A DNA stretch of 64,000 nucleotides from Escherichia coli (GTDB lineage: Bacteria; Pseudomonadota; Gammaproteobacteria; Enterobacterales; Enterobacteriaceae): assembly GCF_965641715.1 (NCBI RefSeq), contig NZ_OZ282453.1. One strand, written 5' to 3'. The position numbers were made by a program, and so were the translations under genes. Within the stretch, counting starts at the first letter, position 1. Each line of letters begins with the position of its first letter. The notes beneath the pieces are model-generated. The model was not told the origin of the DNA. It did not search any database and worked only from the letters and a program-made list of their open reading frames with translations. Shown piece by piece: positions 50,573 through 51,027 of the stretch.

Positions 50573-50603
50573 CTCGCTGATTAAAATATCCAAGGAAGGA
50601 AAT

Positions 50604-50867
50604 ATGATCGATCTGGAAAACCAGGAACGGGAGATTATCAATTTAATGTTCAGCCAGCGTATTTCCTGGCTAGCCGCCGTGCGTATCAGGCATAAATTAT
50701 CGCTTGCTCAAGTAAGTAAAATGTTAGGTATCTCGATTAATTCTCTAAAACAGATCGAAAAGACGGAACGGCTTAGCTCAAACATCAAAAGCAAAATGGC
50801 AGAAATTTATGGTTGTCCACCAGAGTTGCTGATATGCCCTTCCTGGATGACGGCTGAACATAAATGA
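50604..50867 (+). CDS. hypothetical small protein with probable XRE-like helix-turn-helix (87 aa)
   Basis: Strong RBS aaggaaggaaat before ATG; LSLAQVSKMLGISINSLKQIEKTE resembles an HTH; GC lower than flanking backbone; occupies the lplA-deoD interval where I recall K-12 yjjJ. Confidence 0.5.
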   Translation: MIDLENQEREIINLMFSQRISWLAAVRIRHKLSLAQVSKMLGISINSLKQIEKTERLSSNIKSKMAEIYGCPPELLICPSWMTAEHK

Positions 50868-50964
50868 ATAGATTCGTGAATAGATACTTGAATGTATTTT
50901 ATTTTCTATCCATATGAAAAATAATAGTAAATCTATAAATCAGTTGCTATTGATGAATAGATAC

Positions 50965-50995
50965 TAAAAAGCCGGAGCAGTCTCCCGCTCCGGCT
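50965..50995 (-). terminator. rho-independent terminator of deoD (end of deoCABD operon)
   Basis: gccggagc-agtctccc-gctccggc stem-loop with a T-run on the deo strand, ~35 bp after the deoD stop. Confidence 0.75.
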
Positions 50996-51027
50996 TAACA
51001 CAACAATCGCCTTTCAGCGAAACACAA

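What the first reader, a model, noticed from the sequence alone, without database searches (positions are those of the whole stretch)
50573..51027. 87-aa HTH-like ORF with flanking TGAATAGATAC direct repeats where K-12 carries yjjJ
Between lplA and the deoD terminator there are only ~455 bp. I recall K-12 having yjjJ (a HipA-like kinase gene of ~1.3 kb) here. The interval instead holds a short ORF with a strong RBS and an XRE-like HTH segment (LSLAQVSKMLGISINSLKQIEKTE), with lower GC than its neighbours. Three copies of TGAATAGAT(A/T)C lie right after its stop (about 50865, 50877 and 50954). This could be a lone antitoxin-like regulator, a truncated remnant, or a deletion scar with the repeats marking recombination points.
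Basis: partly seen in the sequence, partly recalled or inferred. Interest (0 to 1): 0.5.

Follow-up and report, generated by a model that had tools for sequence, protein, structure and literature searches.

The report
Orphan HTH gene replacing hipH kinase
In this E. coli, as in about three quarters of sequenced E. coli, the toxin-kinase gene hipH (yjjJ) of K-12 has been swapped for a small leftover DNA-binding gene from a mobile toxin-antitoxin pair, and the repeats beside it are the orphaned control boxes of the lost kinase gene.

Summary
Window 50604-50867 (+) encodes an 87-aa XRE-type HTH protein. TGAATAGAT occurs at 50865, 50877 and 50954, with a degenerate copy at 50889. K-12 carries yjjJ/hipH in this slot.

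The ORF is not a yjjJ remnant. It lies on the opposite strand and shows no similarity. It is the majority allele (4057 of 5426 complete E. coli genomes); yjjJ is in 1346, and the two never co-occur. Its nearest relatives are antitoxins of 118-133 aa, found directly downstream of RelE/ParE toxin genes on a plasmid, on phages and on a metagenomic contig. The E. coli protein keeps only their HTH domain, has no toxin neighbour and has low GC (42%).

The repeats are not deletion scars. K-12 has the same boxes upstream of the yjjJ ATG. The array ATCTATTCA at -101/-36/-24/-12 is conserved upstream of hipH from Erwinia to Salmonella. In a metagenome scan, 26 of 120 loci with the tandem box carried a HipH homologue (33-95% identity), and in each the boxes lay upstream of its start on the same strand. 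They are therefore hipH's own control element and probably its autoregulatory operator.

In the window they are relics. Within Escherichia the boxes and the ORF evolve almost neutrally, and pseudogene alleles exist. This is a natural hipH-null allele, undescribed in the papers searched and of moderate interest.

The parts
49556..50572 (+). lplA (lipoate-protein ligase). Context gene; its stop is the left boundary of the allele-specific segment.
   Evidence: 338-aa ORF, annotated lplA in matching RefSeq records. In K-12 the yjjJ stop abuts the lplA stop.
50573..50603 (+). 31-nt gap carrying a Shine-Dalgarno-like AAGGAAGGA. No terminator-like site was found between lplA and the ORF, so co-transcription with lplA is likely.
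   Evidence: Sequence. The terminator scan finds none between lplA and the ORF.
50604..50867 (+). 87-aa XRE-family HTH ORF. It is the orphan DNA-binding domain of a RelE/ParE-associated antitoxin and replaces the hipH coding sequence.
   Evidence: Pfam HTH_3 E=1.7e-6. AF2 and Foldseek give an XRE fold. A profile of the family matches PDB XRE repressors such as CylR2 at E=1.8e-5. Relatives with toxin neighbours. RefSeq annotates it as 'helix-turn-helix domain-containing protein' (WP_000566150.1 in the 99.8%-identical strain cq9, one residue different; the window's exact protein is also in NCBI).
50859..50861 (-). Relic hipH start codon: CAT on the + strand, ATG on the - strand. It now forms codon His85 of the 87-aa ORF.
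   Evidence: Alignments with K-12 and other hipH alleles; identity between the two alleles resumes exactly here.
50865..50873 (-). HipH box D (ATCTATTCA on the - strand), at -12 from the relic ATG. It overlaps the ORF's TGA stop.
   Evidence: Invariant in 11 Escherichia HTH alleles.
50877..50885 (-). HipH box C (ATCTATTCA), at -24.
   Evidence: Deleted as a 12-bp unit in 3 of 11 HTH alleles and mutated in E. marmotae.
50889..50897 (-). HipH box B, degenerate here (ATACATTCA, 2 mismatches), at -36.
   Evidence: Perfect in K-12 and in some HTH alleles. 4 of 9 positions are polymorphic among HTH alleles.
50898..50953 (-). 56-nt allele-specific spacer, in the position of the hipH promoter. It has the same length as in K-12 but only 23 of 55 aligned positions are identical.
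   Evidence: An RpoD-holoenzyme SELEX site and H-NS binding are reported in the K-12 deoD/yjjJ spacer (PMC3946193).
50954..50962 (-). HipH box A (ATCTATTCA), at -101 and 65 bp upstream of box B.
   Evidence: The same 65-66 bp offset is seen in Erwinia, Kosakonia, Salmonella, Citrobacter and in several distant metagenomic hipH loci.
50969..50996 (-). deoD intrinsic terminator: a 12-bp stem followed by a T-run on the - strand.
51028..51747 (-). deoD (purine nucleoside phosphorylase). Context gene.

Best explanation
This interval is the common 'hipH-null' allele of the deoD-lplA slot.

Ancestrally the slot held hipH (yjjJ), a HipA-family kinase with its own N-terminal HTH. Its control region had a distal ATCTATTCA box, a promoter spacer of about 56 bp, and two or three more boxes at 12-bp spacing ending 2-3 nt before the ATG. 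In an ancestor of this allele the hipH coding sequence was replaced, from ATG to stop, by a low-GC cassette of about 290 bp in the opposite orientation.

The cassette is a fragment of a mobile RelE/ParE-type toxin-antitoxin module. Only the C-terminal XRE HTH domain of the antitoxin survives, as an 87-aa ORF. That ORF acquired a start codon and ribosome-binding site 31 nt after lplA, and it ends by running into the first hipH box.

The TGAATAGAT repeats are therefore the orphaned hipH boxes. Because they travel with hipH across very divergent bacteria, they are most likely the operator bound by HipH's own HTH (autoregulation). In this allele they no longer control anything and are decaying slowly.

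The 87-aa protein is probably still made, as a distal cistron of the lplA transcript, and should fold into a DNA-binding domain. Within Escherichia it is only weakly constrained and is often inactivated, so any present role is dispensable.

Shown: the sequence facts, allele frequencies, synteny, box conservation, homologies and polymorphism pattern. Inferred: the direction and mechanism of the replacement, HipH as the box binder, and expression of the ORF.
For: Allele survey. The 455-bp interval is present at >=80% coverage in 4057 of 5426 complete E. coli genomes. yjjJ is present in 1346. The two sets sum to 99.6%.

hipH is the older occupant. It is syntenic after deoD in Salmonella, Citrobacter, Kosakonia, Erwinia and one unidentified genus.

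Box architecture. Boxes lie at -101/-99, -36/-34, -24/-22 and -12/-10 in the named genera, while the spacers cannot be aligned. The window keeps the same geometry relative to the relic ATG.

The boxes belong to hipH. Of 120 metagenomic loci containing ATCTATTCANNNATCTATTCA, 26 carry a HipH homologue (33-95% identity). In each, the boxes lie upstream of the start on the same strand, mostly within about 50 nt. Several loci also have a distal box 65-66 bp further upstream. All keep the N-terminal motif G[IVL]SQ[PA][TS].SR.

Allele boundaries. The two alleles are identical through the terminator and box A, and through boxes B-C-D and the ATG. They are unrelated in the coding segment and about 42% identical in the spacer.

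Origin of the ORF. GC is 41.7% against 53-58% for neighbours and for hipH. The family is tiny: 34 hits among 1.84 billion representative proteins. The nearest non-orthologues are antitoxins of 118-133 aa; one (P0101) matches Pfam RelB-like at its N-terminus (E=1.7e-4) and the others share that N-terminal motif, and all carry the same HTH. They sit directly after RelE/ParE toxin genes in a Leclercia plasmid, Pasteurella phage Pmp14, Enterobacteria phage PPyecE_EH1910 and a metagenomic contig.

Relaxed constraint. Among 11 Escherichia HTH alleles the polymorphic fraction is 39% at lplA codon position 3 and 4% at positions 1+2. In the HTH ORF it is 16/10/18% at positions 1/2/3. The spacer is 23%, box B 4/9, box A 2/9, and box C is deleted in 3 of 11. 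Disrupted ORFs: strain 503829 (internal stop), MS20675 (frameshift), and loci L003 and L004. The 41-nt B-C-D block is perfect in about 1304 genomes, matching the number of hipH carriers, but carries 1-3 mismatches in HTH carriers.
Against: A 44%-identical, exactly 87-codon orthologue sits after lplA in another enterobacterial genus (LplA 89% identical to E. coli). Differences from the window fall 35/28/54 at codon positions 1/2/3, with dN/dS 0.23. The orphan ORF was therefore under coding constraint for a long time and may still have a function.

Boxes A, C and D are perfect in the window and in many E. coli HTH alleles, although the spacer is saturated relative to K-12. This is hard to reconcile with a very old loss of hipH, unless the allele is a more recent recombinant or the boxes retained some function.

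Self-binding by HipH is unproven. ChIP-exo of myc-tagged YjjJ in K-12 found no binding sites (PMC8464067). Reg-Seq reported two repressor sites in the yjjJ promoter and attributed one to MarA (PMC7567609).

The pseudogene fraction in my sample is inflated, because several loci were picked for being divergent.
Confidence: 0.7

Rival explanations
1. The 87-aa protein is a fully domesticated transcription factor that works on the retained boxes. It binds the ATCTATTCA array, or palindromes formed with inverted box-like cores in the allele-specific spacer. This silences the orphaned hipH promoter, which would otherwise fire antisense into the HTH gene and lplA (an excludon-like arrangement).
For: Boxes A, C and D, the 65-bp A-B distance and the relic ATG are intact in the window. 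The HTH-allele spacer carries inverted box-like cores (TTTATAGAT, TGGATAGAA) that K-12 lacks. yjjJ-lplA is listed as a convergent excludon in K-12 (PMC12288877). The ORF is conserved at 87 codons across genera.
Against: In the HTH lineage the boxes vary about as much as the spacer and are lost in 12-bp units. The distant orthologue (L008) keeps the ORF but has lost box A, the spacer and all but one degenerate box. The TA relatives have palindromic CTTAT/ATAAG operators, not this box. The ORF itself is weakly constrained in Escherichia.
Confidence: 0.1
2. The 87-aa protein is a functional regulator with targets elsewhere in the genome. It would be a domesticated solo antitoxin HTH, and the neighbouring boxes would be irrelevant relics.
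For: Long-term retention of an intact 87-codon ORF with a third-position excess. Strong SD sequence, confident XRE fold. Overall polymorphism (15%) is lower than in the adjacent spacer (23%). The ORF is intact in most sampled genomes.
Against: Flat codon-position spectrum within Escherichia, dN/dS 0.34-0.77, and several independent disruptions. No candidate operator was identified. No literature on it was found.
Confidence: 0.2
3. The boxes are operators for a host transcription factor other than HipH (for example MarA or an unidentified repressor). HipH does not bind its own promoter.
For: ChIP-exo of YjjJ-myc found no sites. Reg-Seq attributes one of two repressor sites in the yjjJ promoter to MarA. 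H-NS binds the spacer.
Against: The same 9-mer, in the same tandem arrangement and often with the same 65-bp distal copy, accompanies HipH homologues down to 33% identity in very different metagenomes. A separate host factor would have to be co-conserved everywhere. HipH's HTH motif is itself near-invariant. A 9-bp unit at 12-bp period does not resemble the 20-bp asymmetric marbox (my own knowledge of the MarA site).
Confidence: 0.2
4. The interval is a simple internal deletion of yjjJ, and the ORF is a chance reading frame in what is left.
For: A real deletion allele of that kind exists in strain WB61, which keeps only the first 140 nt of yjjJ.
Against: The window cassette has no nucleotide or translated similarity to any hipH. 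The ORF has significant HTH profile matches and homologues.
Confidence: 0.01

Closest known systems
HipH / YjjJ of E. coli K-12 (HipA-family Ser/Thr kinase with N-terminal HTH; monocistronic)
   Same: Occupies exactly the same chromosomal slot. The window retains its complete upstream architecture: four boxes, the spacer length and the ATG.
   Different: The kinase gene itself is absent. The resident ORF is on the other strand and is unrelated in sequence.
RelE/ParE-associated HTH antitoxins with a RelB-like N-terminus (toxin-first modules, e.g. Pasteurella phage Pmp14 Pmp14_0032/0033, Leclercia plasmid pZ96-1_2 FHN83_RS26795/26790)
   Same: Homologous XRE HTH domain, 31-43% identity over about 70 residues, including the conserved ...SLLAAWR...L.QIEK...LA.IYGC..eQL pattern.
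   Different: Lacks the 45-60-residue N-terminal toxin-binding region and the toxin gene. It is chromosomal and fixed to one locus. Residues in the region aligned to helix 3 differ (SINSLKQIE versus KQSAVSQLE/TQSSISQAE).
hipBA operator array (four TATCC-N8-GGATA sites bound by HipB around the hipBA promoter)
   Same: Several operator copies flank and overlap the promoter of a HipA-family kinase gene, consistent with autoregulation (PMC8262856).
   Different: The HipH boxes are 9-bp direct repeats at 12-bp period plus one copy 65 bp upstream, not palindromes. The presumed binder is a domain of the kinase itself. Binding has not been shown.
Solo (orphan) antitoxins, i.e. XRE-family small regulators left after toxin loss
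   Same: A stand-alone HTH protein of TA ancestry without a partner toxin.
   Different: Here the neutralising domain is also gone, and the gene shows weak constraint and recurrent inactivation.

Membership tests
XRE / Cro-C1 HTH family (Pfam HTH_3, PF01381) | Significant match to the HTH_3 profile | tested here: met
   HTH_3 E=1.7e-6, residues 23-76. A profile of the family matches PDB XRE repressors such as CylR2 at E=1.8e-5.
XRE / Cro-C1 HTH family (Pfam HTH_3, PF01381) | Five-helix lambda-repressor-like fold | tested here: met
   AF2 pLDDT 85.7. Foldseek top hits are CylR2, DdrO, SinR and P22 c2, rmsd 1.5-2 A over 53-60 residues, probability 1.0 but E about 0.01-0.05 because of the small size.
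Type II antitoxin (RelE/ParE-associated, HTH type) | Homology to antitoxins found in toxin-antitoxin gene pairs | tested here: met
   31-43% identity to proteins directly downstream of RelE/ParE toxin genes in four contexts.
Type II antitoxin (RelE/ParE-associated, HTH type) | Adjacent cognate toxin gene | tested here: not met
   lplA lies 31 nt upstream; boxes, terminator and deoD lie downstream. The same context holds at every locus examined.
Type II antitoxin (RelE/ParE-associated, HTH type) | Toxin-neutralising (RelB-like) N-terminal region | tested here: not met
   The alignment starts at about residue 4 of the 87-aa protein, which corresponds to residue 45-60 of the relatives.
HipB antitoxin | Similarity to HipB above generic XRE level, and pairing with a hipA-type gene | tested here: not met
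   HipB chains match only at E=0.02-0.05, worse than unrelated XRE repressors. It never co-occurs with yjjJ at this locus.
yjjJ/hipH gene remnant | Residual nucleotide or protein similarity to hipH | tested here: not met
   No BLASTP alignment to the YjjJ N-terminus. Only chance blastn/tblastx hits to six hipH loci.
HipH box array (defined here) | Two or more ATCTATTCA at 12-bp period ending 2-45 nt before an ATG, plus a distal copy about 65 bp upstream | tested here: met
   Window - strand: boxes at -101, -36 (degenerate), -24 and -12 from the relic ATG.
HipH box array (defined here) | Followed by a hipH coding sequence | tested here: not met
   The ATG is followed by the antisense of the HTH ORF.
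HipH box array (defined here) | Bound by HipH's N-terminal HTH | not testable with these tools
   Supported only by co-inheritance across distant homologues. One negative ChIP-exo report exists.
Deletion or recombination scar (direct repeats created by or flanking a deletion) | Repeats absent from, or present once in, the undeleted allele | tested here: not met
   The yjjJ-bearing allele has four perfect copies in the same positions.

The most novel reading that the evidence does not exclude
The hipH/HTH dimorphism is a functionally linked, long-maintained polymorphism. The 87-aa XRE protein would have taken over the ATCTATTCA box array, or HipH's other DNA targets. It would silence the orphaned hipH promoter and so tune lplA through convergent transcription. 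The two alleles would then be alternative regulatory states of one locus, not gene versus relic.
Probability: 0.1. Interest if true: 0.65.

Novelty: new member of a known kind. Interest (0 to 1): 0.42.

Why it matters
HipH (YjjJ) is under active study as a persistence and toxicity kinase, and how it is controlled is stated to be unknown (PMC8262856).

1. About 75% of complete E. coli genomes are natural hipH nulls. These include O157:H7, O111 and at least one strain labelled ST1193; Shigella flexneri carries the same protein. K-12 and ST131 carry hipH. Conclusions drawn from K-12 or particular UPEC strains therefore do not generalise. Natural allele pairs within one phylogroup are available for comparison.

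2. The repeats define a conserved, simple candidate operator for HipH: ATCTATTCA at 12-bp period plus a copy 65 bp upstream. This makes autoregulation by its N-terminal HTH directly testable.

3. The 87-aa gene is a clean example of a toxin-antitoxin fragment surviving as an orphan HTH gene in a core-genome slot.

None of this is categorically new biology.

Tried and rejected
- NCBIfam scan of the 87-aa protein gave only sub-threshold generic HTH or sigma-r4 hits.
- phmmer against PDB with the single sequence gave nothing meaningful.
- The genome-contig scan with the family alignment found the gene in only two GTDB species representatives, both Escherichia, so it gave no outgroups.
- The simple sigma-70 scan found no promoter on the hipH strand in the window, K-12 or Salmonella, so it cannot say whether the relic promoter is alive. 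By eye, TTGACA-17-TTAAAT is present in Salmonella.
- Rfam gave no credible RNA family.
- Pfam on the HipH N-terminus gave only insignificant MarR_2/HTH_20 hits.
- I considered the box pair as a Cra-like palindrome (TGAATAGATTCG). The palindromic extension is not conserved in other genera, so I rejected it.
- I considered a single long inverted repeat bracketing the cassette (I1/I3/I4). The arms are not collinear and are near chance level, so I rejected it.
- The small antisense ORF after the relic ATG (27 aa by manual translation of the - strand) appears not to be conserved in L008, judged by eye, so I rejected it.
- Literature searches for the box sequence, for WP accessions and for my guessed O157 locus tags returned nothing relevant.

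Full report
**1. What is there**

The window runs serB(-), ytjB(+), lplA(+, 49556-50572), an 87-aa ORF (+, 50604-50867), then deoD(-, 51028-51747) and deoB(-). This is the reverse orientation of the K-12 map.

The ORF follows lplA by 31 nt and is preceded by AAGGAAGGA. It matches Pfam HTH_3 (E=1.7e-6). AlphaFold2 models it with pLDDT 85.7 as a helical bundle that superposes on CylR2, P22 c2, SinR and DdrO. A profile of the family matches the same XRE repressors in the PDB. Its GC content is 41.7%, against 57.8% for lplA and 52.8% for deoD.

Exact TGAATAGAT occurs at 50865, 50877 and 50954. The whole window has 5 copies against 0.25 expected. A degenerate fourth copy lies at 50889.

**2. Comparison with K-12 and the population**

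In K-12 (strain ER1709) a 1332-bp yjjJ lies on the opposite strand, between the lplA stop and the same repeats. The two alleles are identical from the deoD stop through the terminator and the distal repeat. They are also identical through the three proximal repeats up to and including the yjjJ ATG. That ATG is CAT at window 50859-50861, now codon His85 of the ORF. The coding segments are unrelated. The 55-56-nt spacer has the same length but only 23/55 identical positions (shuffles 16.9 +/- 3.1).

Among 5426 complete E. coli genomes, 4057 carry the window-type interval, annotated 'helix-turn-helix domain-containing protein'. Another 1346 carry yjjJ. The two sets do not overlap and together make 99.6%. 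ST131 strain EC958 has yjjJ, while a strain labelled ST1193 has the HTH allele. Both sequence types belong to phylogroup B2 (my own knowledge). A rare third allele (strain WB61) is a plain deletion that keeps the first 140 nt of yjjJ.

The ORF is not a yjjJ remnant. BLASTP against the YjjJ N-terminus finds nothing, and blastn/tblastx of the cassette against six hipH loci give only chance hits.

**3. What the repeats are**

Read on the hipH strand, the repeat is ATCTATTCA. In K-12 four perfect copies lie at -101, -36, -24 and -12 from the ATG. hipH is syntenic after deoD in Salmonella enterica, Citrobacter freundii, Kosakonia cowanii, Erwinia and an unidentified enterobacterium. In all of these the same boxes occupy the same positions, within 1-2 nt, while the spacers between them cannot be aligned.

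I then scanned metagenome contigs for ATCTATTCANNNATCTATTCA. In each the boxes lie upstream of the start on the same strand, mostly within about 50 nt. Several very distant ones also have a distal copy 65-66 bp upstream (for example -89/-24/-12 and -85/-20/-8). Four further loci are E. coli HTH alleles. The rest are microsatellite-like or chance matches.

The N-terminal motif G[IVL]SQ[PA][TS].SR plus G.AR...YA is conserved in all these HipH proteins. A cis element that accompanies a gene across this range of divergence is most simply the target of that gene's own DNA-binding domain. I therefore read the boxes as the HipH operator array (autoregulation).

This step is inference. ChIP-exo of myc-tagged YjjJ found no sites in K-12 (PMC8464067). 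Reg-Seq reported two repressor sites in the yjjJ promoter and attributed one to MarA (PMC7567609). No paper in the searched library mentions the box sequence in this context.

**4. Where the ORF came from**

The family is very small. phmmer over 1.84 billion representative proteins gives 34 hits. Full-length orthologues are confined to Escherichia (E. coli, Shigella, E. marmotae, two unnamed Escherichia species) and always lie in the lplA-ORF-deoD context. There is one exception: a 44%-identical, exactly 87-codon copy after lplA in a contig from another enterobacterial genus, whose LplA is 89% identical to E. coli.

The next relatives (31-43% identity) are proteins of 118-133 aa. P0101 matches Pfam RelB-like at its N-terminus (E=1.7e-4), the others share that N-terminal motif by eye, and all carry the same HTH. 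In four independent contexts they lie directly downstream of an 86-93-aa RelE/ParE toxin gene. The contexts are a Leclercia plasmid, Pasteurella phage Pmp14, Enterobacteria phage PPyecE_EH1910 and a metagenomic contig.

The E. coli protein aligns only to their C-terminal domain. It is therefore an orphan antitoxin DNA-binding domain of foreign, low-GC origin. It lacks both the toxin and the neutralising region. The promoters of those TA modules carry CTTAT/ATAAG palindromes, not the HipH box.

**5. Is anything here still under selection?**

Against the distant orthologue, differences fall 35/28/54 at codon positions 1/2/3, with no indel and dN/dS 0.23. The orphan ORF was therefore maintained as coding for a long time.

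Within Escherichia the picture differs. Among 11 HTH-allele sequences, the last 300 nt of lplA show 39% polymorphic third positions and 4% at positions 1+2. The HTH ORF shows 16/10/18% at positions 1/2/3, and pairwise dN/dS is 0.34-0.77. Four of the 13 sequences first collected are disrupted: an internal stop, two frameshifts and a large deletion. My sampling was biased towards divergent variants.

The boxes fare no better than the spacer (23% polymorphic). Box B has 4/9 positions polymorphic and box A 2/9. Box C is lost as a 12-bp unit in 3/11 sequences and mutated in E. marmotae. Only box D, which contains the ORF's stop codon, is invariant. The 41-nt B-C-D block is perfect in about 1304 genomes, matching the number of hipH carriers, whereas HTH carriers have 1-3 mismatches. 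The distant orthologue has lost box A and the spacer and keeps one degenerate box.

Loss of hipH thus goes with relaxation of the boxes. This ties their function to hipH. It argues against the idea that the 87-aa protein needs them.

**6. Unresolved tension**

The spacer of the E. coli HTH allele is saturated relative to K-12's, yet its boxes and their spacing are nearly intact. There are three possible readings:
- The Escherichia HTH allele is a comparatively recent recombinant.
- K-12-type hipH was re-imported from elsewhere.
- The boxes kept some function for a while.

I cannot decide between these with the data available.

**7. Verdict**

The interval is the majority, hipH-less allele of a two-allele locus. 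It holds an orphan, weakly constrained XRE gene of TA ancestry, in place of the hipH coding sequence. The intact but orphaned hipH control region lies next to it.

The ORF is annotated in RefSeq but uncharacterised. Neither the allele swap nor the box array appears in the literature I could search. The finding is a new member of known kinds (solo antitoxin; TA-type operator array) and of moderate interest. Its main value is for work on HipH.

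Noticed in passing
L001 2504-2610 (K-12); L013 2390-2500 (Salmonella); L014, L016, L019 (Erwinia), L020 (Kosakonia); metagenome loci L036-L148: A conserved 'HipH box' architecture precedes hipH homologues down to 33% identity: ATCTATTCA in tandem at 12-bp period just before the start codon, plus a copy 65-66 bp upstream. It is apparently undescribed. It is a direct candidate for the HipH autoregulatory operator.
   Followed up: yes
L007 2449-2640 (E. coli WB61): A rare third allele: an internal deletion leaves only the first 140 nt of yjjJ, annotated as a pseudogene 'transcriptional regulator', fused against the lplA 3' end.
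   Followed up: partly
L016 1355-2400: In one unidentified enterobacterium a REP-like repeat array and a 163-aa ORF are inserted between deoD and box A. The 163-aa ORF looks like a REP-associated transposase, but I did not test this. The box-to-hipH geometry is left intact.
   Followed up: no
window 14563-14571 and 27002-27010: Two further single exact copies of TGAATAGAT. One lies about 20 nt upstream of the start of a 388-aa ORF on the - strand, which I take to be nhaA from its size and map position. The other lies immediately after the stop of a 428-aa ORF, which I take to be thrC, next to a hairpin. These are probably chance, but the count is above expectation (0.25 for the whole window).
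   Followed up: partly
window 51748-51826 (deoB-deoD intergenic): This spacer is 79 nt in the window. It contains a GC-rich palindromic element (CCCTCTCCCTGTGGGAGAGGGCCGGGGTGAGGGC). K-12 and O157:H7 have an unrelated 56-nt spacer with a different hairpin. This is a second small replacement polymorphism next door.
   Followed up: partly
L009 3147-3647; L018 390-1106; L025-L027: There is a family of RelE/ParE toxin plus RelB-like-HTH antitoxin modules on plasmids and phages, with CTTAT/ATAAG palindromic promoters. In L009 the toxin position is reduced to a 35-aa ORF, and the pair sits beside a DUF2357/PDDEXK_7 gene.
   Followed up: partly
L024 2875-3041 (E. coli O157:H7 JEONG-1266): ytjB, the gene upstream of lplA, is annotated as an incomplete pseudogene in this O157:H7 assembly.
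   Followed up: no
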